Virus record (IMG/VR): IMGVR_UViG_2534681604_000010
Span: 1 to 37,320 of that record
Strand: one strand, 5' to 3'
Origin: a virus
Lineage: Duplodnaviria > Heunggongvirae > Uroviricota > Caudoviricetes
DNA: 37,320 bases
The notes below the pieces were generated by a model. The model worked only from the letters and a program-made list of their open reading frames with translations, ran no database searches and was not told the origin of the DNA. This document shows positions 8,554 through 23,656 of the stretch, piece by piece (positions within the stretch are counted from its first letter, which is position 1; each line of letters opens with the position of its first letter). The position numbers were made by a program, and so were the translations under genes.

Positions 8554-9726
8554 TTACGCGCTGACCTGGCTGGCGAAATTCACCAGGTACTGATCGGTGA
8601 TGCGCTGACGCAGCATCAGGTTTTCAAGTGGCGGCACTGGCGTGTAGTCGTAGTCGATGGTGAGTTTTCCGGCTTTCAGCGTGTCTTTGTCGTTCACCAA
8701 CTCATCCAGCCAGCAATCACCACCAATGAGATAGCCCTGACTGACCAGGCTGCGCATTTTGGCGCGGATACCTTCGATAATGTCGCGGGCCAGCGACGGG
8801 TTAAGCGGTTTATCCACCGCCCACATGTGTGCTTCTGCCATCGTGTCCATCAGCACCTGCGCCGTGCGGGTGTAGTTTTCGAAGGCAAAGAGCGGGTCAT
8901 CACTCAGGCAGCGGGAACCCCAGAAGCGGAAACCGTCTTTACGCACAAGCGTGGTGACGTCGTTCTGGTTCAGCAGACCTGCATCGGTTGCCGGGTCCTG
9001 CAGATCCCAGAACACATCTGCAGAAATTCCGGTGACACCGTTCACGCCCACGTTGGACAGGCTTTTGTGCCATCCGGTCTGCTCGTCAATTTTGGCGCGC
9101 AGACCAAGCGCACGGGCGGTGGCATATGCCGTTGCTTCGGCATTCAGCACCGTGTCCCAGCCAGTAAAGTCAGGCCAGATCAGCATCCCTTCGCGCTGGC
9201 TGAAGTTTTCGCGGTAAGTGATCGCCTCCTGCACTGTCTTGCAGCCATACGCTGACAGGTAAGCAAATCCACGCAGGCTTTGCGCCACGCTCAGCAACTC
9301 AGTAGCTACCGCCTTGGTGTCGTGGCCTGGCACGCCGAGAATGCGCGGTTTAACGCCGAGCTGTGACTGGGCAGATAACAGGGCTTTCATACCTGTTTTT
9401 TTACCTTCAGCAGTCACTGCGCCGATGATATTGGTCGTGGTTTCGTCTTCCGTTTCACCCTGCGGCACACGCACAACAATGGTCACGGGTTTTGCCTGGT
9501 CAGCGATGGCATCCAGCGAACGGGCCAGAGTACCTGACTCACCCGCTTTACCGCTGGCAGTCAGCACATCAGTGATCAGCACGGGTTTATTAAGAGGAAA
9601 CATTTTTGCATCGGCATCATCGCCCGTACAGACCATACCCACGATGGCGGTGCTCACCGTGGTAATAGATCGGGTGCCTTCGTTGACTTCAACAACGCGC
9701 ACCCCGTGGTGGTAATCCTGAGCCAT
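8554..9726 (-). CDS. FI: Contractile tail sheath protein gpFI
   Basis: 390 aa; strong RBS CAGGAGG upstream; P2 FI-like. Confidence 0.9.
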
Positions 9727-9868: not shown

Positions 9869-10441
9869 TCAGGGGGATTCATTGATCTTATTTGCCGGAA
9901 ATTTTCTATAAATGGTAGAAACGCCTACATCAAAAATCAGTGCAATACGCTGTATTGATTCTCCGGCCTCGAGTAAACGCCCAATCTGTGCCCACTGTTC
10001 GGTGGTCAACTTAGGACGGCGTCCACCTACTCTGCCTTTGGCACGAGCTGCAGCCAGCCCTGCCCTGGTACGTTCAACTATCAGTTCGCGTTCCATTTCA
10101 GCCAGGGCACCCATGACATGAAAAAAGAAACGGCCCATTGGGGTACTGGTATCAATACTGTCAGTCAGGCTTCTGAAATTCACACCACGCTGGCGCAACT
10201 CTTCTATCAGCGTAACAAGATGCCGCATACTGCGCCCCAACCTGTCCAGCTTCCAGACAACCAGCGTGTCTCCTGCCGATAGTGTCCTGAGCAGTTTTTT
10301 CAACCCTAGTCTGTCGGACTTAGTGCCACTGATTTTATCCTCAAAAATCCGCTCACATCCCGCGCAGTTCAGTGCATTACGTTGCAAATCGGTGTTCTGG
10401 TCATTTGTTGACACGCGTACATAGCCAGTAAGCATGATCAT
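9869..10441 (-). CDS. Serine recombinase, DNA invertase of the Hin/Gin/Pin/Cin family
   Basis: N-terminus GYVRVSTNDQNTDLQRNAL with catalytic Ser motif, central VVWKLDRLGRS, C-terminal HTH; very close to e14 Pin / Mu Gin as recalled. The true start may be the second Met at 10435. Confidence 0.9.
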   Translation of the reverse strand: MIMLTGYVRVSTNDQNTDLQRNALNCAGCERIFEDKISGTKSDRLGLKKLLRTLSAGDTLVVWKLDRLGRSMRHLVTLIEELRQRGVNFRSLTDSIDTSTPMGRFFFHVMGALAEMERELIVERTRAGLAAARAKGRVGGRRPKLTTEQWAQIGRLLEAGESIQRIALIFDVGVSTIYRKFPANKINESP

Positions 10442-10491
10442 CTCCTAGAATAAAAATCGGGGATGATGCCAGTTAGTCGTAATCGCTGCAT

Positions 10492-10517
10492 TTTCTTAAA
10501 TGTTGTTTGGGAGAGGA
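10492..10517 (+). other. Degenerate hix-like crossover site (relic) about 50 bp upstream of the invertase gene
   Basis: TTTTCTTAAATGTTGTTTGGGAGAGG resembles the site at 12409..12434 (outer half-site, TT core, inner GGTTTGGGAGAA) but has a 1-bp deletion in the inner half-site. Confidence 0.35.
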
Positions 10518-10713
10518 GGCGAAACTCGACGCTGCACACAGTGTATTTTTTTATAGATCTTGGGCTATATTCCCATTAATAGGCTGTAATAAGTTAAGAG
10601 TGCAATGGGAGCGTTGGAAGGGAGATATAACAAGCACTACGTATAATTGTGATTTCACGTTTCCTATGTCATTTCATGAACTTGTTTCGGCGTATATTCA
10701 AGCGCAGGTGTAA
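10507..10713 (+). pseudogene. Orphan promoterless tail-fibre C-terminal cassette (probable remnant)
   Basis: ORF opens with TTG GGA GAG (L-G-E) inside the relic crossover site, in the same register as the alternative fibre tip at 12426; only 68 aa and no Tfa gene follows. Confidence 0.3.
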
Positions 10714-11016
10714 TGGCATCTAATTATGATTATGTATTATCTTATAGAATTTTAAGAAAAGCTGTTTCAATCATCTAACTAACGAAACCCGTTGTTAATG
10801 CTCAGTTTTTTCCTTGTCGATATGCTGCTTTGTAGCTGACGTATGTTTACTTGGCTTGTAATATGTTTCTAATTAAACCCTGTAGAGATCTTGATCATTA
10901 CTCAGGAAAGAATAATAAGCGGTTAGTTAAAATTCCCGCTAAGGCTGCACTTTAAAATGACAACTTTAGCGGAGGATAAATTGTACTTACATGTGTAAAT
11001 TTTAGGCATTAATTGT

Positions 11017-11439
11017 TTAAACTTTAGTCTCTGGTGAAGAGTCTTTTTTGAAGCTATCATCCTCCTTCTTCCCAAACATGTAACCTAGAGATAACGTAAT
11101 AATTGGGGTGAAAACAGCCCAAGAATCTTTAACTATATTTAAAGCTGACTGTCCCCCATTACTGAAGACATCAATCACTAATAATGCTGCAACAATACAG
11201 GAATAAATAGTCAGTGAATACGTTATTACATGCCAAACAACACTGTTTTTAGCATCATCACCTTTACCTATTTTATCGGGAATGCTTTCCTCGCTTTTAT
11301 TTCTCACTCTTACTGGAATATCACCATCCTGATAATCACCTTTGGTTGATTTTTTGCTTCTTGACGAACTACCTGAGATAGAAAAAGAGCCACCCGCCTG
11401 CTCATACTGTTCATACTGTTCATACTGTTCATCAGACAT
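11017..11439 (-). CDS. Hypothetical membrane protein: acidic EQY-repeat N-terminus, two predicted TM helices
   Basis: 140-aa ORF in AT-rich DNA; MSDEQYEQYEQYEQ then hydrophobic stretches ITYSLTIYSCIVAALLVIDVF and AVFTPIITLSLGYMFG; no similarity to P2 core genes that I recognise. Confidence 0.5.
   Translation of the reverse strand: MSDEQYEQYEQYEQAGGSFSISGSSSRSKKSTKGDYQDGDIPVRVRNKSEESIPDKIGKGDDAKNSVVWHVITYSLTIYSCIVAALLVIDVFSNGGQSALNIVKDSWAVFTPIITLSLGYMFGKKEDDSFKKDSSPETKV
11401..11431. repeat. In-frame 9-bp tandem repeat (TCATACTGT, about 3.3 copies) encoding the EQY repeats
   Basis: Read directly from the sequence; unit is a multiple of 3 so copy-number change keeps the frame. Confidence 0.8.
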
Positions 11440-11442
11440 AAG

Positions 11443-11880
11443 TCATTCCCCATCCGCATCCAGAACTTCTTCTTTTGTAGCTATATTTACCGTCAACAGA
11501 ATAGCATCATTATTTTCAGATAATGATTGGGTGGCAAAGAATAAATAATAGTTAAAAGTTTTCTTTTCACCGTTATTTGGTTCTAGGGTTTGTTTAAAAA
11601 ATCTTGTCCGAGTACCATCGTTAACACCTGCATCAACATGGAAAAAATTGATAAGATTAATATTTAACCCATCTTTAATCGTAGTTTTTACTCGAGGGAC
11701 AACCTCACCTTTTTCGTCTTCTTTTTTATCAACATCAAACTTAAGTCTTAATTTAAAATCGCCATAAAATTCAACTTCAGGGTTAGCAGCAAGAACCACC
11801 AATGTTTGAGAAAATACGACATCCATCCCCGATATTTTAGTTTTAATTTGCTTTTTCATTTGCACGCTCTTTTTTTGCAT
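11443..11880 (-). CDS. Hypothetical soluble protein (Lys/Asp/Glu-rich), middle gene of the AT-rich cassette
   Basis: 145-aa ORF ending 3 nt before the next gene; no family recognised. Start may be an internal Met. Confidence 0.5.
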   Translation of the reverse strand: MQKKSVQMKKQIKTKISGMDVVFSQTLVVLAANPEVEFYGDFKLRLKFDVDKKEDEKGEVVPRVKTTIKDGLNINLINFFHVDAGVNDGTRTRFFKQTLEPNNGEKKTFNYYLFFATQSLSENNDAILLTVNIATKEEVLDADGE

Positions 11881-12136
11881 TCAGATTACTATGATCTGGG
11901 TTATCATTTAACTTATTCAACGAAGGGCTATTCATACAGATATAATAAGTAATAAATATAATTATTATTACAATAAAGCCAGACTTACACATGATTCTAT
12001 ACATAAACTTCCCTATATCTTTAAATACTGATGTGTCGATAAGGGAAGGGACGCGCCATAGGAATCGACCAAAGGCAAAAAGGAATAATGTAACCATTAC
12101 TCCACTTGCTATATATATATAAATTTTGATATCCAT
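11843..12136 (-). CDS. Hypothetical small membrane protein (two predicted TM helices), first gene of the AT-rich cassette
   Basis: 97-aa ORF with hydrophobic segments IYIYIASGVMVTLFLFAFGRFLW and GFIVIIIIFITYYICM; overlaps the next gene by 38 nt. Confidence 0.4.
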   Translation of the reverse strand: MDIKIYIYIASGVMVTLFLFAFGRFLWRVPSLIDTSVFKDIGKFMYRIMCKSGFIVIIIIFITYYICMNSPSLNKLNDNPDHSNLNAKKERANEKAN

Positions 12137-12408
12137 AAAAACCTTAAATTAGTTTTTCTATCCATCGCTTAATAAAAAAGGTTGAAATGATAAACTCTTC
12201 ATCTATTGACGCACTATTTAATATCATATTTTATAGAATATGTCGAGTATAGTTTTAACTTGGATTCGATATAACCACAGAACCATCGCCAACACCTAAA
12301 GATGTCGTCCATCCTTTGACGACTAAAACTTAACACTCAATATGAATGGTTGTTTTATATACAGCCGCACCGTTCGTAGCGCATTGGAAACGTAAGGTAA
12401 ACGCATTA

Positions 12409-12434
12409 CTCTCTTTAAGGTTGGTTTGGGAGAA
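12409..12434. other. 26-bp hix/gix-like crossover site, invertase-proximal end of the invertible tail-fibre segment
   Basis: CTCTCTTTAAGG-TT-GGTTTGGGAGAA; the inner half-site plus core is a perfect 14-bp inverted repeat of 14295..14308. Confidence 0.6.
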
Positions 12435-12773
12435 GCGGCTAAAAGGAATGTAGGGACAGGGGCGAATCAGATACCTGATATGGGTAGCTTCACGCTTTCT
12501 GTTTCAGGTACTGGATATCAAAAATTACCATCAGGTTTTATTCTTCAGTGGGGCTCAATCGGCGCACCAGGCATTGCACAGGATGTAGTAACCCATTTCC
12601 CGATTGCATTTCCAAACAGATGTCTGCGTGTTTTGGTCTCACAAGACTACACACCAGATAGCGGGGCTGTTGGTTATATTGCCTGTGCAGGTTTTAGTCC
12701 CGACCCGGTTAAATTTATATCCAGAGCCAGTACTCCTGGCCTCGGCGCTTCATTTTTAGCGTTAGGCTGTTAA
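12426..12773 (+). CDS. Alternative tail-fibre C-terminal segment (silent in this orientation)
   Basis: The frame is open from 12396 and has no ATG of its own; it begins inside the crossover site with codons G-L-G-E, identical to the codons at the crossover site within H, so inversion would fuse it in frame to the H constant region. Confidence 0.65.
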
Positions 12774-12794
12774 TTTAGCTATATGGAGTGAAAA

Positions 12795-13235
12795 ATGAAT
12801 TACATATATTCCGCGACTACAAACTCTTTCTATCCGCTGGAGATGAAAGAGGATTACACTCAAGCTGACTCATGGCCAGATGATGCTGTTGAAGTTGATG
12901 AGCAGGTGTATATTGAGTTTTCCGGATTACCGCCGAAAGGAAAAATCCGTATCGCTGGAGAAAATGGTTTTCCTGCATGGTCTGAAATTCCACCACCAAC
13001 ACATGAGGAACAGATTGCTGCAGCCGAACTGGAAAAGCAGCAATTGATTAATCAGGCCAACGATTATATGAACAGTAAACAATGGCCTGGTAAAGCGGCT
13101 ATTGGTCGTCTGAAAGGTGACGAACTGGCGCAATATAATTTGTGGCTGGATTACCTGGACGCACTGGAACTGGTCGATACTTCCGGTGCGCCAGATATTG
13201 AATGGCCTACGCCTCCGGCAGTTCAGGCCAGATGA
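12795..13235 (+). CDS. Tail fibre assembly protein, alternative copy (Tfa', U'-like)
   Basis: 146 aa; C-terminus ...LWLDYLDALELVDTSGAPDIEWPTPP parallels the C-terminus of the active Tfa; convergent with it, 29-bp overlap. Confidence 0.8.
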   Translation: MNYIYSATTNSFYPLEMKEDYTQADSWPDDAVEVDEQVYIEFSGLPPKGKIRIAGENGFPAWSEIPPPTHEEQIAAAELEKQQLINQANDYMNSKQWPGKAAIGRLKGDELAQYNLWLDYLDALELVDTSGAPDIEWPTPPAVQAR

Positions 13236-13809
13236 CATCCGGCGCGGTGCTGGTATCTGTTGCCGTCACCGCGTCAATGTAATCCAGCACAGCGTTAAGT
13301 CGGGTTGTTTCTGCCTGCGTCAGTTTACGTCCGGCCTGCAATTTCAGTTGAATCAGACTAATGGAAGCCATTGCAGTATCAATCAGTGACTGACGCTGTG
13401 CTTCTGCCGCGCCTACTGCGGCGCTATGCTGTGCCACAGTATCTGTTACCCATTTCTCACCATCCCATTCATCGTATGGCGTTAACGGGGCGATAGTGGT
13501 TGTATTTTCAGGATAATCACCCGGAGCTGTGATTTCTTTCGATTCTCCTGTTTCGGTGCTATAGATGATTTCACCGCGATGGTCTGGCACATATTCCCAT
13601 GAGTTTAAATCTGCCGAACGGCAGATTGCATAACCAGCCTTATGTGTGCCAGGGGAATCTAAACAGGAACATGCCGGAATGCCGACACCAACGGCAAGAT
13701 ATTCATTTGAAGTGGAAATATATTCCCGTGTTTCACCATCATAGTTATAAACGGTAACATCCCCTGCCTTTGTTGCAATGAGCTCACTATTTAATATTGC
13801 TTTATGCAT
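13207..13809 (-). CDS. G: Tail fibre assembly protein (gpG-like Tfa), currently expressed orientation
   Basis: 200 aa immediately downstream of H; conserved Tfa C-terminal motif ...LDYIDAVTATDTSTAPDVIWPELPEA. Confidence 0.85.
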   Translation of the reverse strand: MHKAILNSELIATKAGDVTVYNYDGETREYISTSNEYLAVGVGIPACSCLDSPGTHKAGYAICRSADLNSWEYVPDHRGEIIYSTETGESKEITAPGDYPENTTTIAPLTPYDEWDGEKWVTDTVAQHSAAVGAAEAQRQSLIDTAMASISLIQLKLQAGRKLTQAETTRLNAVLDYIDAVTATDTSTAPDVIWPELPEA

Positions 13810-15356
13810 CAGGCTGCCCTCACGATATAGTTAAATGCAATATTACGCGGACGCGTTTCTGAGGCTGCGGCACCTAAACCAGCCACTGATTGTTTATATG
13901 TTTTAAAGGTTCCATAATCCGGTGCTGGTAATCCGGCATCGTTTGTGTTTCCTCTTTTGATAATGTCAGTGCCACTATTTACCCAGCTTTCATCAAAATA
14001 GAAATTAATCGTTGCATCAGTCACAATCGTGGATCTTGACGGTAATCCATGAGCATGATCCTCCGTTGCATACCCCTGAATACTTAAAATAGAGCGACCT
14101 GTATCAATCCCCCGCCCGTCATCCCAGCCACGAATAAACTCACCACGTAAATCAGGCAATTTATTTGTCGGGTAAACTTTTGCCAGTTCCGGGTATTCTT
14201 CAGCAGAAAAAGCTGCACCATTGCATTTCAGCCAGCCTGTTGGCGGAGTGGCTGAAGGCCACGGAACAGGGACACCAACAGGTAATGCAGAGCCTTCTCC
14301 CAAACCAAGGTATGTGAGAAGACCAGCTACATCCTTTCCACTCAAATTAGTCAGCGTATTGTCCAGCGGTTGTTTACCTGCCAGCGCATTAAGCATTGTC
14401 GTGGCAAAGTTCGGATCATTCCCCAGCGCCGCCGCCAGTTCGTTCAATGTATCCAGTGCCGCAGGTGCAGAACCCACCATTCCTGCAATCGCCGATTTCA
14501 CAAAAGCCGTAGTGGCAATCTGTGTATTGTTGACCGACTGTGCCGCAGTAGGTGCTGTTGGCGTTCCGGTAAGTGCCGGACTCGACAGCGGCGCTTTCAG
14601 TGCCAGCGCATTATTAATAGTGGTACTGAATTTCGGGTCATTGTTAATGGCTGCGGCAATTTCTTTCAGTGTGTCCAGCATGGCTGGCGCACCGTTAATC
14701 AGAGCAGTAATAGCGGCCTGAACAAACTCTGTGGTCGCAATCCGAGTGGTGTTATTTCCTGCTGCAGGCGTCGGCGCTTTTGGTTCTCCGGTAAATGTCG
14801 GATTATGTTTCTGCGCATACTGGGTATGAGGATCTTGTGCGGCAATGTGGTTTCTCATCTGGTCATCCACATACAGCTTTAATTCCAGGACTTTATCATC
14901 CACGTATTTACGGGTTGCCAGCACTACAGCAGGGTCGATTTTCAGGATGATATTGTCCGTGCTGCTGGTAATCAGCACCATGCGCACGGTCTGGGTACGC
15001 CCGCTGCCTTCAGCCAGTTGCGGCTTATAGCTTTCCGGGCAGTTTCCCACGGCAATCAATGCCCCGGACTCATCAAACAGGCCCACTTCACGTATCCACC
15101 AACCGCCCTCGTTTTCAGGGATCACCTGTTCAGCAATAATCTGGCTACTGTTCTGCGGGTCGATATAAAGCATATTCAGCGCAGCCCGGCGTTTCTCATT
15201 TACCAGTGCCGTCTGCTTTGCGTCCGGCGTTGGCAATACTCCGCCGCCATCGCCCACCGCCATATGGGTAATTTTTAGCGGCACACCGAGCGCGGCGGCG
15301 CTGGCAAGTTTCGCCGCGCCAATATCCGTCAGCAGGGTATAAAATTTTGTGCTCAT
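13809..15356 (-). CDS. H: Tail fibre protein gpH (constant N-terminal part plus variable C-terminal part in current orientation)
   Basis: 515 aa; N-terminus MSTKFYTLLTDIGAAKLA... recalled as P2 H-like; contains a crossover site at 14295..14320. Confidence 0.9.
   Translation of the reverse strand: MSTKFYTLLTDIGAAKLASAAALGVPLKITHMAVGDGGGVLPTPDAKQTALVNEKRRAALNMLYIDPQNSSQIIAEQVIPENEGGWWIREVGLFDESGALIAVGNCPESYKPQLAEGSGRTQTVRMVLITSSTDNIILKIDPAVVLATRKYVDDKVLELKLYVDDQMRNHIAAQDPHTQYAQKHNPTFTGEPKAPTPAAGNNTTRIATTEFVQAAITALINGAPAMLDTLKEIAAAINNDPKFSTTINNALALKAPLSSPALTGTPTAPTAAQSVNNTQIATTAFVKSAIAGMVGSAPAALDTLNELAAALGNDPNFATTMLNALAGKQPLDNTLTNLSGKDVAGLLTYLGLGEGSALPVGVPVPWPSATPPTGWLKCNGAAFSAEEYPELAKVYPTNKLPDLRGEFIRGWDDGRGIDTGRSILSIQGYATEDHAHGLPSRSTIVTDATINFYFDESWVNSGTDIIKRGNTNDAGLPAPDYGTFKTYKQSVAGLGAAASETRPRNIAFNYIVRAA
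14295..14320. other. 26-bp hix/gix-like crossover site inside gene H (constant/variable junction)
   Basis: TTCTCCCAAACC-AA-GGTATGTGAGAA; on the H coding strand it encodes ...LLTYL-GLGE... Confidence 0.6.
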
Positions 15357-19618: not shown

Positions 19619-20131
19619 TCAGTTTGCTCCCTGTAAACACCAGGCCATCTCCCGCGCACGGCGGTTATCCAGCCCCTGATTAAACACACCTTTCACATAA
19701 ACCCAGCGCGGCAACTGTCGGCACGCATCCGCCCAGCGCCGCTGATTGAGTAATTTCACCAGCGTGGAACTGCAGGCATTGCCCGTTCCCACGTTGAAGG
19801 CAAACGACACCGCAGCGTCATATACCTTCTGCGGCGGCTGTTGTTTCACACACCTTTCCAGCGCTCGCTCCACACGCAGCACGTTGGAAATCAGTCCTTC
19901 TGCTGCCTGTCGTTCCGTAATGGTTTTGCCGGGAATGACGCCTGACGTGTTACCAATGCCGTCGGTCCAGACGCCCGCGCTGCACTGATACGGCTGCAGA
20001 CGACAGCCTTCGTAATCGGCAATCAGTTTCAGCCCCTCCACGGAGGTGTGAAGCTGCTGAAACCCCGGCAGCGTGGCAGCAATAGCCAGCACGGCCCCGA
20101 CAAGGCAGCGTTTAACGATTGATGGATTCAT
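19619..20131 (-). CDS. K: Endolysin, lysozyme family with N-terminal signal-anchor-release (SAR) domain (gpK position)
   Basis: EGCRLQPYQCSAGVWTDGIGNT catalytic region recalled as P1 Lyz / phage 21 R-like; weakly hydrophobic Gly/Ala-rich N-terminus. Confidence 0.8.
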   Translation of the reverse strand: MNPSIVKRCLVGAVLAIAATLPGFQQLHTSVEGLKLIADYEGCRLQPYQCSAGVWTDGIGNTSGVIPGKTITERQAAEGLISNVLRVERALERCVKQQPPQKVYDAAVSFAFNVGTGNACSSTLVKLLNQRRWADACRQLPRWVYVKGVFNQGLDNRRAREMAWCLQGAN

Positions 20132-20327
20132 AGTCCTCCCGCGAGATCTGCCCGTCGCGCAGAAGCTGGTAGGCTTTGTGTTTGTAGTACCAGTTGATAG
20201 CCAGCATCAGCACACCAATCATCAGGCCGCCCAGCGTTGAGGCATCCTTGATGGACAAATCGCCCAGCCAGGCCAGCACAACGGCGATGCAGTACGTGAT
20301 AAAGGCGCTGATTCGCTCAAGCGTCAT
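20112..20327 (-). CDS. Y: Holin (gpY position), likely a pinholin given the SAR endolysin
   Basis: 71 aa, two predicted TM helices, charged C-terminus; sits between X and K. Confidence 0.7.
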   Translation of the reverse strand: MTLERISAFITYCIAVVLAWLGDLSIKDASTLGGLMIGVLMLAINWYYKHKAYQLLRDGQISREDYESINR

Positions 20328-22822: not shown

Positions 22823-23656
22823 TCAGCAATTGGTCAGAGTGTCAGCGGGGGCGTTACCGCCTGTTGCACGCTGGCGGTAGTCCTGGCGGCTGTCTTCTTG
22901 ACTCAGCTTGTCCACCAGTTCGTTAAAGGCGGTCTGCTGTGCCTGCAGGGCAGTCTCCAGCTCAGACAGGCGTTCTTCCTGCTCAGACAGGGATTTTTCG
23001 GTGCGTGCGCTCAGGTTTTGCTGCTCAGTGGCGACCAGCTCCACGGCCTTATGCACATCAGAGAACCGGGCGTCATCGGACTGATCTTTTTTGGTAAACA
23101 GCGCCGTGACACGGGCAAACAGGGACGGTTTGTCATCCTGGATTTCTTCCAGTTCGATCACCGTTTCCTCTGCAGCGGTAAAGAGATTGGCAGGATTCTG
23201 CTTGCGGTTTGCCAGTGGGTTATGGGCTGCACTGGCGCTGAATGTCAGCATTTCAGTGCCCAGACTGGCAGGGTCATCAGTGGCAGCCAGGCCGACCAGG
23301 TAGGCTTTGCCCGTATCAGCGAACTTCGGGCTGACTTCCATAGAGGTGAATAATTTCTGGCCTTTTTTCACCAGCTCCACCAGGGACTCCGTTGGCTCAA
23401 CGTCGGCATACAGCGCCATCTTGCCTGCCAGCGGACCTTCCGTGATTTCTTCAGCAAACAGCGCCGTCACCTTGCCGTAGCGGTTAAAGGTGCTGTCCGG
23501 CAGATAAGACTTGATGTGCTCAAGGTTAATCAGCGCGGTATACACCGCCGGGTTATAGCTGGCTGCCATCTGTTCCAGCCATTCACGCTGGATTTCGCGT
23601 CCGTCGGTGGTGGCACCTTCCACCCCGATGCGAAAACGCTTTGCTTTCACTGTCAT
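22823..23656 (-). CDS. O: Capsid scaffolding protein gpO
   Basis: 277 aa; acidic coiled-coil C-terminal half; divergent from P. Confidence 0.85.
   Translation of the reverse strand: MTVKAKRFRIGVEGATTDGREIQREWLEQMAASYNPAVYTALINLEHIKSYLPDSTFNRYGKVTALFAEEITEGPLAGKMALYADVEPTESLVELVKKGQKLFTSMEVSPKFADTGKAYLVGLAATDDPASLGTEMLTFSASAAHNPLANRKQNPANLFTAAEETVIELEEIQDDKPSLFARVTALFTKKDQSDDARFSDVHKAVELVATEQQNLSARTEKSLSEQEERLSELETALQAQQTAFNELVDKLSQEDSRQDYRQRATGGNAPADTLTNC

What the first reader, a model, noticed from the sequence alone, without database searches (positions are those of the whole stretch)
11401..11431. In-frame 9-bp tandem repeat in the EQY-repeat membrane protein gene
TCATACTGT is repeated about 3.3 times at the 5' end of gene 11017..11439, encoding the (EQY)n tract. 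Copy-number slippage would change the acidic N-terminal length without disrupting the frame, a possible variable region of a candidate defence or exclusion protein.
Basis: seen in the sequence. Interest (0 to 1): 0.4.

Follow-up and report, generated by a model that had tools for sequence, protein, structure and literature searches.

The report
Variable in-frame repeat in prophage membrane-protein gene
A real 9-base repeat at the start of a small prophage membrane-protein gene gains and loses whole copies between bacterial isolates, lengthening a floppy protein tail without breaking the gene; this is an ordinary kind of variation, in a gene cassette whose function is unknown.

Summary
Window 11398-11432 is a 9-bp tandem array (3.9 copies; perfect core 11402-11432). 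On the minus strand it reads ATG TCT GAT (GAACAGTAT)x3 GAGCAG, giving M-S-D-(EQY)3-EQ at codons 4-14 of the 140-aa ORF 11017-11439. No Markov-simulated window produced a comparable run (0 of 300).

Copy number varies among isolates. The E. coli/Cronobacter/Enterobacter alleles have 2 or 3 units and the Klebsiella alleles 1 or 2. The difference is an exact 9-nt indel with identical flanks. In near-identical E. coli prophages the 2/3 state conflicts with three mutually compatible SNPs, which implies at least 3 independent changes. The range is narrow: 0-, 1-, 4-, 5- and 6-unit versions are absent from about 15 billion proteins. Because the array stays in frame, it cannot act as an ON/OFF switch.

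The repeat lies in a predicted disordered N-tail that is hypervariable across the family, ahead of a conserved two-helix membrane hairpin. The gene is the last of three in a 1.9-kb low-GC cassette inserted between the invertible tail-fibre segment and the invertase of a P2-like prophage (the Z/fun hotspot). Related modules occur beside a Klebsiella prophage integrase, on 2.9-kb ColE1-type plasmids and in an Acinetobacter phage. A defence or exclusion role is plausible but untested.

The parts
11398..11432 (-). 9-bp tandem array. On the coding strand it is GAACAGTAT x3 plus the partial unit GAGCAG, encoding (EQY)3-EQ at codons 4-14. The perfect core is 11402-11432.
   Evidence: TRF, the repeat finder D1, sequence, simulation 0/300. 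Alleles with 2 units in otherwise identical DNA.
11017..11439 (-). 140-aa ORF encoding a small membrane protein: a disordered polar/acidic N-tail (about residues 1-60) followed by a conserved two-helix hydrophobic hairpin and a short Lys/Asp-rich C-tail. The ATG lies 3 nt after the TGA stop of the upstream gene, with GGGGA 7 nt upstream.
   Evidence: the ORF listing; 33 homologues with an invariant core G58..K124; 169 clusters at 50% identity; AF2 gives pLDDT<50 for 1-52 and 54-56 and helices at 62-94 and 99-122; hydropathy.
11074..11256 (-). Region encoding the conserved helical hairpin (residues 62-122: KNSVVWHVITYSLTIYSCIVAALLVIDV ... SWAVFTPIITLSLGYMFGK).
   Evidence: Invariant columns in alignment A1; AF2 pLDDT 72-88.
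11443..11880 (-). Upstream partner gene, 145 aa from the first ATG (gene callers use the 138-aa start at 11859). It is a soluble all-beta protein and a divergent relative of the DUF6864 (PF21732) proteins that precede the 2TM gene in plasmids and other phages.
11843..12136 (-). First gene of the cassette, 97 aa, with two hydrophobic segments. It is positionally and architecturally equivalent to the 62-77-aa 2TM ORFs that head the module elsewhere. Sequence homology to those ORFs was not shown.
   Evidence: the ORF listing, hydropathy, ORF maps of related loci, alignment A6 and BLASTP with no hit.
10525..12411 (.). Low-GC (29-40%) inserted cassette. It is absent from the closest sequenced phage, where the invertase directly follows the invertible fibre segment.
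   Evidence: Composition. Homology to Escherichia phage 500465-1 stops at window 10524 and resumes only at cix2. Annotation of the empty site.
10493..10524 (+). cix3: the crossover-site copy next to the invertase, 97% identical to the site in phage 500465-1. It is followed by a 68-aa vestigial ORF (10507-10713) that runs into the cassette.
   Evidence: the repeat finder D2, sequences and translations, blastn, match to starts of gp53-like genes in E. coli genomes.
12412..12444 (+). cix2: the crossover site at the start of the alternative fibre C-terminal module (gp53-like C, 12426-12773 +).
   Evidence: the repeat finder I2 and D2, Pfam PF21882.
14290..14310 (-). cix1: the crossover site inside tail-fibre gene H (13809-15356 -), inverted relative to cix2 and cix3.
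   Evidence: the repeat finder I2 gives 15/15 complementary. The segment between cix1 and cix2 is found in both orientations among isolates.
9869..10441 (-). Serine DNA invertase (Resolvase + HTH_7) flanking the cassette.
   Evidence: Pfam 3e-51 and 6e-16.

Best explanation
The array is a genuine short coding tandem repeat (a 9-bp unit, in frame) at codons 4-14 of a small inner-membrane protein gene. It changes copy number by slipped-strand mispairing during replication.

Shown:
- Alleles differing only by one exact 9-nt unit coexist in near-identical prophages.
- The change has happened at least three times in the E. coli lineage, and at least once more in the Klebsiella lineage.
- The observed range is 1-3 units, and the window carries the maximum.

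Inferred:
- The array lies in an intrinsically disordered, cytoplasm-facing, mildly acidic N-terminal tail. This tail is the fastest-evolving part of the family, so adding or removing E-Q-Y is tolerated and probably close to neutral.
- The array cannot switch the gene on or off.

The gene is the last of a translationally coupled three-gene cargo cassette: a small 2TM protein, a DUF6864-like beta protein, and this 2TM protein. The cassette is inserted at the Z/fun hotspot of a P2-like prophage. My best guess for the cassette (inference, about 45%) is a lysogen-expressed, membrane-acting anti-phage module (abortive infection or superinfection exclusion) in which the conserved hairpin is the membrane effector and the tail is a regulatory or interaction segment.
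For: Repeat reality.

Polymorphism:
- Protein variants of 140, 137 and 134 aa differ only in EQY number.
- Contig counts in the E. coli-type backbone: 2 units in 346+16+12+2 contigs, 3 units in 68+5+3.
- Contig counts in the Klebsiella backbone: 1 unit in 27+13, 2 units in 12+10.
- At the DNA level the flanks are identical and the difference is an exact 9-nt indel.
- Two further collections each yielded one copy of the array, both the 2-unit allele; the IMG/VR copy lies on a contig already seen.

Recurrence:
- In the 2-kb cassette alignment of 15 loci, the SNPs at window 12123, 10853 and 10831 are compatible with each other, but each shows all four combinations with repeat number.
- The 6 kb of downstream prophage DNA splits the loci into two clades about 37 SNPs apart. 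Each clade contains both alleles at 3-9 SNPs distance.
- A degraded prophage remnant occurs with 3 units (L002) and 2 units (L018) at 0 SNPs.

Narrow range: hypothetical 0-, 1-, 4-, 5- and 6-unit (E. coli backbone) and 0-, 3- and 4-unit (Klebsiella backbone) proteins are absent from the collection, and no copy of the array with 4 to 7 units was found in IMG/VR.

Disordered, unconstrained tail:
- AF2 gives pLDDT<50 and no secondary structure for residues 1-56.
- Alignment A1 has no conserved column before residue 56 apart from M1.
- Other members carry unrelated N-terminal repeats: P0088 has SSLNQEA about 4 times and P0022 has TEGTEG.

Cargo context:
- Low GC and an empty site in phage 500465-1.
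- The same cassette sits beside a prophage integrase in Klebsiella.
- A DUF6864+2TM pair is the only accessory cargo of a 2.9-kb ColE1-type plasmid and also occurs in Acinetobacter phage Ab105-2phi.
- The Z/fun locus is a recognised P2 hotspot mixing fibre swaps, invertases and defence-like cargo (bioRxiv 10.1101/2024.10.15.618418).
Against: No read data were available, so within-culture heterogeneity is untested.

The loci were retrieved by exact protein variant rather than sampled at random, so allele frequencies and the event count are rough. Recombination between P2-like prophages could mimic some of the homoplasy.

Neutrality is inferred and not shown. The closest subfamily keeps one or two acidic-Tyr motifs near the N-terminus, so the duplicated unit may be a functional short motif.

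For the cassette function there is no homology to any known defence, exclusion, toxin or lysis family, no informative fold match and no literature. One database names a Serratia orthologue 'Holin'.
Confidence: 0.8

Rival explanations
1. The repeat number is functionally tuned. The E-Q-Y unit is a short linear motif (acidic-Tyr) whose valency sets how strongly the tail binds a partner (the DUF6864-like protein, the other 2TM protein or a phage product), and copy-number variants are kept by diversifying selection.
For: Nearly all close relatives start MSD/MSN and carry 1-2 Tyr preceded by acidic or polar residues within the first ~12 residues. The N-tail is hypervariable across the family, as expected for an interaction or specificity segment. 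Independent repeat expansions occur in other members. Both alleles are common, at roughly 83% and 17% of contigs.
Against: Across the whole family Tyr is not enriched in the first 20 residues (0.029 against 0.033). The range is only 1-3 units, with nothing longer in 15 billion proteins. There is no functional assay.
Confidence: 0.15
2. The 2- and 3-unit alleles arose once each and were spread onto different prophage backgrounds by homologous recombination, so the locus is not hypermutable.
For: P2-like prophages recombine frequently. The SNP counts are small, with 3 informative sites in the cassette. The Klebsiella 2-unit alleles do form one clade.
Against: The three informative SNPs are mutually compatible and show no sign of recombination among themselves, yet all three conflict with repeat number. 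Both alleles occur within each of two flanking-sequence clades at 3-9 SNPs per 6 kb, and in the same deletion remnant at 0 SNPs. Each case would need a conversion tract of a few hundred bases or less.
Confidence: 0.12
3. The array is a phase-variation (contingency) switch that turns the gene on and off.
For: It is a tandem repeat at the 5' end of a gene in a mobile-element cargo cassette.
Against: The unit is 9 bp, so every gain or loss keeps the frame. All 1-, 2- and 3-unit alleles encode full-length proteins. The tract is short, it lies inside the ORF after the start codon, and it does not overlap the ribosome-binding site.
Confidence: 0.02
4. The repeat is not translated. The real gene is the 63-aa C-terminal ORF that some NCBI annotations call, and the array lies in a leader or intergenic region.
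For: Many NCBI records annotate only a 63-aa product beginning MYSCIVAALL (P0036 and others).
Against: That start corresponds to an ATT codon in the middle of the first conserved helix. Of the homologues inspected, 94 of 181 could be anchored on a core motif, and in those an open N-terminal extension of 13-70 codons precedes the core. Among the closest alleles the length differences are multiples of three. The residues just upstream of that start (IPDKIGKGDDAKNSVVWHVITYSLT) are among the best conserved. The ATG at 11439 is coupled to the upstream stop codon and has a GGGGA Shine-Dalgarno sequence.
Confidence: 0.03
5. The cassette is not anti-phage. It is instead an addiction (toxin-antitoxin-like) module that stabilises its carrier, or a holin-like auxiliary lysis or release function.
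For: It is the sole accessory cargo of 2.9-kb ColE1-type plasmids, which suits a stabilising element. Small two-helix membrane proteins are typical toxins and holins. UniRef labels a Serratia orthologue 'Holin'.
Against: The prophage has its own holin (20112-20327, PF16080) and lysozyme (19619-20131, PF00959) 8.7 kb away. The cassette sits at classic moron or defence positions: the Z/fun hotspot and next to an integrase. No homology to known toxins or holins was found.
Confidence: 0.3

Closest known systems
In-frame coding tandem repeats (VNTR-type length polymorphisms) in bacterial and phage surface or membrane proteins, generated by slipped-strand mispairing
   Same: Head-to-tail perfect units, unit length a multiple of three, exact-unit indels between otherwise identical alleles, homoplasious changes, and location in a low-complexity disordered segment.
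   Different: The array is very short (at most 3.9 units) and has a narrow range (1-3). The protein is cytoplasm-facing and membrane-anchored rather than an exposed antigen. No phenotype is known.
P2 Z/fun hotspot cargo (non-essential low-GC genes between the tail-fibre genes and the sheath gene FI of P2-like phages)
   Same: Same position relative to the fibre/assembly genes and the sheath gene, low GC, absent from the closest relative, and accompanied by an invertase and fibre-module swapping as described for this hotspot.
   Different: No sequence relationship to any described defence system was detected, and anti-phage activity has not been tested. The P2 Z/fun protein itself was not compared. 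The insertion lies exactly at a cix crossover site.
DUF6864 (PF21732) + small 2TM protein gene pairs of phages and small plasmids
   Same: The 140-aa protein is clearly homologous (E 1e-26 to 1e-9) to the 2TM proteins that directly follow bona fide DUF6864 genes. Gene order, size and overlap or coupling are the same.
   Different: The window's partner protein falls below Pfam detection and is linked to DUF6864 only by profile-profile comparison (86.7%). The family itself has no known function and no literature.
Membrane-acting prophage exclusion or abortive-infection systems with a cytosolic partner and small membrane proteins (for example lambda RexA/RexB, T4 Imm, P22 SieA)
   Same: Carried by a prophage and, by position, presumably expressed in the lysogen. 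The architecture is small multi-helix inner-membrane proteins plus a soluble partner, carried as a moron.
   Different: There is no sequence or fold similarity, and no evidence of phage sensing, depolarisation or an injection block. The resemblance rests on architecture and context only (my own knowledge, not tested here).

Membership tests
Coding tandem-repeat length polymorphism (slipped-strand VNTR) | At least 3 head-to-tail copies of high identity, beyond chance | tested here: met
   3.9 copies at 96%; 0 of 300 simulations reach the run length.
Coding tandem-repeat length polymorphism (slipped-strand VNTR) | Unit length a multiple of 3 and array inside an ORF, so the frame is kept | tested here: met
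   The 9-bp unit lies at codons 4-14 of ORF 11017-11439.
Coding tandem-repeat length polymorphism (slipped-strand VNTR) | Alleles differ by whole units with identical flanks | tested here: met
   2 versus 3 units in E. coli-type loci and 1 versus 2 in Klebsiella loci, as exact 9-nt indels.
Coding tandem-repeat length polymorphism (slipped-strand VNTR) | Recurrent (homoplasious) changes on a clonal background | tested here: met
   Four-gamete conflicts with three mutually compatible SNPs. Both alleles occur in each flanking clade. Recombination is not formally excluded.
Coding tandem-repeat length polymorphism (slipped-strand VNTR) | Length heterogeneity within a population (reads) | not testable with these tools
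   No read-level data were accessible.
Phase-variable contingency locus | Repeat changes shift the reading frame or alter promoter spacing, giving ON/OFF expression | tested here: not met
   The unit is 9 bp, all alleles are full length, and the array lies downstream of the start codon.
DUF6864-associated 2TM module | 2TM protein homologous to those encoded directly downstream of PF21732 genes | tested here: met
   tblastn 2e-26 to plasmid pVCSW8 and 7e-9 to phage Ab105-2phi. Their upstream genes hit PF21732. Conserved synteny in 12 further loci.
DUF6864-associated 2TM module | Upstream partner is itself a PF21732 member | tested here: inconclusive
   No Pfam hit at E<=0.1. BLASTP to the plasmid partner gives E 0.006. 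hhalign gives 86.7%, E 4.4e-6 over 104 columns. A profile search with the combined alignment A2, which already contained PF21732 members, retrieved further PF21732 proteins, so this is not independent support.
P2 Z/fun-hotspot cargo | Located between tail-fibre/assembly genes and the sheath gene of a P2-like phage | tested here: met
   Fibre gene H at 13809-15356, assembly genes, cassette, invertase, then sheath at 8554-9726. P2-family markers GpU, GPD and Ogr_Delta are present in the homologous loci that carry the same cassette; those window ORFs were not themselves scanned.
P2 Z/fun-hotspot cargo | Accessory: compositionally foreign and absent from close relatives | tested here: met
   GC of 29-40% against 50-59% in the flanks. 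Empty site in phage 500465-1. No copy in 5,426 complete E. coli genomes.
Anti-phage defence or exclusion system | Homology to a described defence protein | tested here: not met
   PADLOC gives no hits for any of the three proteins or for their plasmid and phage counterparts, apart from noise.
Anti-phage defence or exclusion system | Confers resistance to phage infection | not testable with these tools
   Requires cloning and plaque assays.
Holin | Encoded in the lysis cassette next to an endolysin, with membership of a holin family | tested here: not met
   No holin Pfam or NCBIfam hit. The prophage's own holin and lysozyme are at 19619-20327.

The most novel reading that the evidence does not exclude
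The three-gene module (small 2TM protein, DUF6864-like beta protein, and 2TM protein with a hypervariable tail) is a previously undescribed membrane-acting anti-phage or exclusion system that travels between P2-like and other prophages, tiny ColE1-type plasmids and Acinetobacter phages. Under this reading the disordered N-tail is its specificity or regulatory element, so slippage of the EQY unit, and the analogous repeats in other members, is a cheap way of retuning it.
Probability: 0.12. Interest if true: 0.6.

Novelty: new member of a known kind. Interest (0 to 1): 0.3.

Why it matters
On its own the repeat is a routine coding length polymorphism. It could serve as a fine-scale typing marker for this prophage cassette, and it warns that protein-length differences of 3 aa here are not annotation errors.

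The larger value lies in what surrounds it. This is an uncharacterised, compositionally foreign three-gene membrane module sitting precisely at a crossover site of the P2 Z/fun hotspot. It recurs in unrelated mobile elements, including plasmids for which it is the only accessory cargo. That distribution makes it a reasonable candidate for experimental defence or exclusion screens. The natural 1-, 2- and 3-unit alleles provide a ready-made series for testing whether the tail matters.

Tried and rejected
- Family searches. Pfam, NCBIfam, PADLOC and PHROGs scans of all three cassette proteins and of their plasmid, phage and viral-contig counterparts gave nothing informative apart from PF21732 on the partners.
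- PDB sequence search with both family profiles gave nothing.
- Rfam on 10300-12600 gave no hit.
- The promoter and terminator scan of the cassette found no more sites than shuffled sequence, and no clear promoter upstream of the 97-aa gene.
- Literature searches for DUF6864 and for six RefSeq accessions of family members found no papers. The P2 hotspot papers I read discuss mainly the old/tin locus and do not mention this module.
- Megablast of the cassette against 5,426 complete E. coli genomes matched only the 76-bp cix region, so that collection could not be used for counting repeats.
- Sequence homology between the 97-aa first gene and the short first ORFs of the plasmid-type modules could not be shown.
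- Rejected readings: phase variation, an untranslated-repeat (63-aa ORF) model, and the holin label. The reasons are given under rivals and membership tests.
Full report
**1. The observation**

The window around the finding reads, on the plus strand...gcctgCTCATACTGT TCATACTGT TCATACTGT TCATcagacat.... Tandem Repeats Finder reports 11398-11432, period 9, 3.9 copies, 96% matches, score 63. This is the strongest array in the 37-kb window. The repeat finder shows three 17-nt copies at 9-nt spacing.

The perfect TCATACTGT periodicity runs from 11402 to 11432.

The minus-strand ORF 11017-11439 (140 aa) is real. On the coding strand the array reads ATG TCT GAT GAACAGTAT GAACAGTAT GAACAGTAT GAGCAG, giving M-S-D-(E-Q-Y)3-E-Q.

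A period-9 run of 26 self-matching positions with at most 1 mismatch was never reached in 300 first-order Markov simulations of the window at any period from 4 to 12 (maximum 18).

**2. Does the copy number vary?**

It does. A search of 5.8 billion clustered proteins found 33 homologues. The closest differ from the window protein essentially by the number of EQY units (alignment A1).

Cluster membership and sequences give the following.

| Backbone | Units | Length | Contigs |
|---|---|---|---|
| 'AGGSF' (Escherichia, Cronobacter, Enterobacter) | 2 | 137 aa | P0035 346, P0037 16, P0039 12, P0001 2 |
| 'AGGSF' | 3 | 140 aa | window protein P0034 68, P0043 5, P0045 3 |
| 'SDYLF' (Klebsiella) | 1 | 134 aa | P0002 27, P0038 13 |
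| 'SDYLF' | 2 | 137 aa | P0048 12, P0042 10 (second Tyr changed to Phe) |

At the DNA level the flanks are identical and the alleles differ by exactly one 9-nt unit.

Two further collections each yielded one copy of the array, and both are the 2-unit allele. The IMG/VR copy lies on a contig that had already turned up, so only the metagenome copy is new.

Hypothetical proteins with 0, 1, 4, 5 or 6 units on the E. coli backbone, or 0, 3 or 4 units on the Klebsiella backbones, are not present among about 15 billion sequences. No copy of the array with 4 to 7 units is present in IMG/VR. The range is therefore 1-3 units, and the window carries the longest known allele.

**3. One event or many?**

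I aligned about 2 kb of cassette from the window and 14 E. coli-type loci. Three informative SNPs, at window positions 12123, 10853 and 10831, are compatible with one another. Each of them occurs in all four combinations with the 2-unit/3-unit state. On the SNP tree this needs at least three copy-number changes.

Six kilobases of downstream prophage DNA (invertase to tape-measure gene) split the loci into two clades about 37 SNPs apart. Each clade contains both alleles, separated by only 3-9 SNPs.

A distinctive degraded prophage remnant, in which the invertase is fused to gpU, occurs with 3 units (L002) and with 2 units (L018) at zero SNPs across the cassette.

In Klebsiella the 2-unit alleles form one clade, so a single event suffices there.

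Recurrent slippage is the most economical reading. Short-tract recombination cannot be formally excluded, and the loci were retrieved by allele rather than sampled at random.

**4. What the repeat sits in**

Across the family, alignment A1 has no conserved column before residue 56 apart from the initiator Met. From G58 to K124 there are 29 invariant columns.

An exhaustive profile search finds only 169 clusters at 50% identity among 1.84 billion representatives. Nearly all are 100-148 aa long, and in many the match ends within a few residues of the C-terminus.

AlphaFold2, run with the 34-sequence alignment, gives the following:
- pLDDT below 50 and no secondary structure for residues 1-52 and 54-56;
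- two helices, 62-94 and 99-122, at pLDDT 72-88;
- a short third helix.

Hydropathy gives one strong hydrophobic segment (71-89). The second conserved segment (WAVFTPIITLSLGYMFG) is less hydrophobic. Lys residues cluster before helix 1 and after helix 2, while the 15-residue connecting loop has a single Lys. By the positive-inside rule I infer an N-in/C-in hairpin. This topology is inference only.

The tail is polar (41% S/T/G/N/Q) and mildly acidic (13 D+E against 10 K+R). Each EQY unit adds one negative charge.

Other family members carry unrelated N-terminal repeats: P0088 has SSLNQEA about four times and P0022 has TEGTEG. The tail is therefore a general hotspot for low-complexity expansion.

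The closest subfamily does keep one or two acidic-Tyr motifs in the first dozen residues (MSDEEYGLDGY, MSDANYSPSDY, MSNDDYSYE and similar). The duplicated unit may therefore be a short functional motif. Family-wide, Tyr is not enriched there.

**5. Is the tract translated?**

Some NCBI records annotate only a 63-aa product. That start is an ATT codon in the middle of the first conserved helix.

The evidence favours the long ORF:
- The residues immediately upstream of that start are among the best conserved.
- Of the 181 family proteins inspected, 94 could be anchored on a core motif, and in those an open N-terminal extension of 13-70 codons precedes the core. The other 87 did not match the anchor pattern and were not examined this way.
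- Among the closest alleles the length differences are multiples of three.
- The ATG at 11439 lies 3 nt after the TGA of the upstream gene and has a GGGGA 7 nt upstream.

**6. Genomic context**

The window is a P2-like (Peduoviridae) prophage. Pfam identifies a P2-type tail fibre (PF12571), two tail-fibre assembly genes in opposite orientation, a gp53-like C-terminal fibre module and a serine invertase. The sheath, tube, tape-measure, gpU, gpD and Ogr annotations come from the homologous loci that carry the same cassette. The closest sequenced phage is Escherichia phage 500465-1 (Wadgaonvirus), at 96% identity over the fibre and baseplate genes.

There are three crossover (cix-like) sites, each encoding ...GLGE...:
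- one inside fibre gene H (about 14300);
- an inverted copy at 12412-12444;
- a third at 10493-10524, in direct orientation to the second.

The segment between the first two sites is found in both orientations among isolates, while the cassette keeps its orientation.

In phage 500465-1 the invertase gene starts 28 bp after the invertible segment. Homology to the window runs from the invertase side through cix3 and stops at 10524. It resumes only as a 33-bp match at cix2.

The 1.9 kb from 10525 to 12411 is thus an insertion lying exactly at a crossover site. Its GC content is 29-40% against 50-59% in the flanks. A 68-aa vestigial open frame reads from cix3 into it.

This position, between the fibre/assembly genes and the sheath, is the Z/fun hotspot of P2-like phages. 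That hotspot is known to mix fibre swaps, invertases and defence-like cargo (bioRxiv 10.1101/2024.10.15.618418).

None of 5,426 complete E. coli genomes carries the cassette, although hundreds of draft contigs do.

**7. The cassette as a module**

The three minus-strand genes overlap or abut:
- 97 aa (two hydrophobic segments), 11843-12136;
- 145 aa (138 aa by gene callers), soluble, 11443-11880;
- the 140-aa protein.

In Klebsiella a cassette with the same two downstream genes, about 67% identical in DNA, lies next to the integrase at the end of a different prophage. The 98-aa first gene was called or found in two of those loci (L028; L039).

More distant homologues of the 140-aa protein occur in several other elements:
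- 2.9-kb ColE1-type mobilisable plasmids of E. coli, where the module is the only accessory cargo;
- a Cedecea chromosome;
- Acinetobacter phage Ab105-2phi;
- several IMG/VR contigs, including other P2-like tails and integrase-proximal sites.

In each of the 17 loci mapped the gene is directly preceded by a 115-145-aa protein (178 aa in L047). In the plasmid-type loci a 62-77-aa 2TM ORF comes before that.

The partners in the plasmid and in the Acinetobacter phage are Pfam DUF6864 (PF21732). The window's partner is not detected by Pfam. Its subfamily aligns to the DUF6864-type partners with hhalign probability 86.7%, E 4.4e-6.

No paper in the library mentions DUF6864 or six RefSeq accessions of the family. 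PADLOC has no model for any component.

**8. Mechanism**

Shown: an in-frame 9-bp array whose unit number changes recurrently among near-identical prophages.

Inferred: the changes arise by slipped-strand mispairing. They are tolerated because they fall in a disordered, weakly constrained cytoplasmic tail. Because the unit is 9 bp, the array cannot toggle expression, so it is not a contingency switch.

For the cassette I commit, at about 45%, to a lysogen-expressed, membrane-acting anti-phage module (abortive infection or superinfection exclusion). In this reading the conserved hairpin is the effector in the inner membrane and the beta protein is a cytosolic partner. The argument is contextual:
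- a foreign cassette at a recognised defence/moron hotspot;
- relocation to an integrase-proximal moron site in another prophage;
- carriage as sole cargo by tiny plasmids;
- an architecture reminiscent of systems such as RexAB (my own knowledge, not tested).

The main functional rival, at about 30%, is an addiction-type or lysis-related membrane toxin module. The 'Holin' label that one database gives an orthologue is not supported: the prophage has its own holin and lysozyme at 19619-20327, and the protein hits no holin family.

**9. Verdict**

Its central prediction, copy-number variation that preserves the frame, is borne out. The 'defence or exclusion' label remains a reasonable but untested guess.

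As a phenomenon, the repeat is an ordinary coding VNTR of small range. The surrounding uncharacterised three-gene module is the more interesting object.

Noticed in passing
window 10493-10524, 12412-12444, 14290-14310: Three cix-like crossover sites, all encoding GLGE. The low-GC cassette lies between the two sites in direct orientation. The site next to the invertase (cix3) is 97% identical to the functional site of phage 500465-1. Inversion between cix1 and cix3 would therefore flip the whole cassette and fuse fibre gene H to a 68-aa vestigial frame (10507-10713). No isolate examined shows that arrangement.
   Followed up: partly
window 12421-14308; loci L017, L019, L021 versus L001, L003, L022: The tail-fibre invertible segment (two alternative C-terminal fibre modules, each with its own assembly gene) is captured in both orientations in different assemblies, so the invertase is active in nature.
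   Followed up: partly
L002 7005-8879 and L018 (degraded prophage remnant): A deletion derivative of the prophage joins the invertase gene to gpU (a 624-aa fused ORF in L002), removing the sheath, tube and tape-measure genes while retaining the cassette. The cargo outlives the phage.
   Followed up: no
P0088 (family member from the representative search): An unrelated member of the same 2TM family carries its own N-terminal tandem repeat (SSLNQEA about 4 times), and P0022 has TEGTEG. Repeat expansion in the tail has arisen independently.
   Followed up: partly
L031-L034 (Streptococcus infantis, australis, sanguinis and oralis draft assemblies, contigs of 0.6-3 kb): These Gram-positive assemblies contain the enterobacterial ColE1-type plasmid module: a 2,954-nt contig whose predicted module proteins are nearly identical to those of the 2,941-bp E. 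coli plasmid pVCSW8. This is most likely laboratory or sequencing contamination.
   Followed up: no
window 11017-11208 (the 63-aa annotation P0036 and relatives): Many NCBI genomes annotate only the C-terminal 63 aa of this gene, starting at an ATT codon inside the first conserved helix. This is probably a systematic start-site mis-call.
   Followed up: partly
window 11843-11880: From its first ATG, the 145-aa ORF overlaps the end of the 97-aa ORF by 38 nt. Gene callers use the start at 11859 (138 aa, 17-nt overlap). The true start is unresolved.
   Followed up: no
window 10450-12420 versus 'E. coli genomes': The cassette is absent from all 5,426 complete RefSeq E. coli genomes, even though its proteins are recorded on more than 400 Escherichia draft or metagenome contigs. 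Only the 76-bp cix region matches, and it lies under the starts of gp53-like fibre genes.
   Followed up: no
window 22946-22992: The second-strongest tandem array in the window has a 21-bp period, 2.2 copies, 77% matches and a score of 59, and lies in the head-gene region. It was not examined.
   Followed up: no
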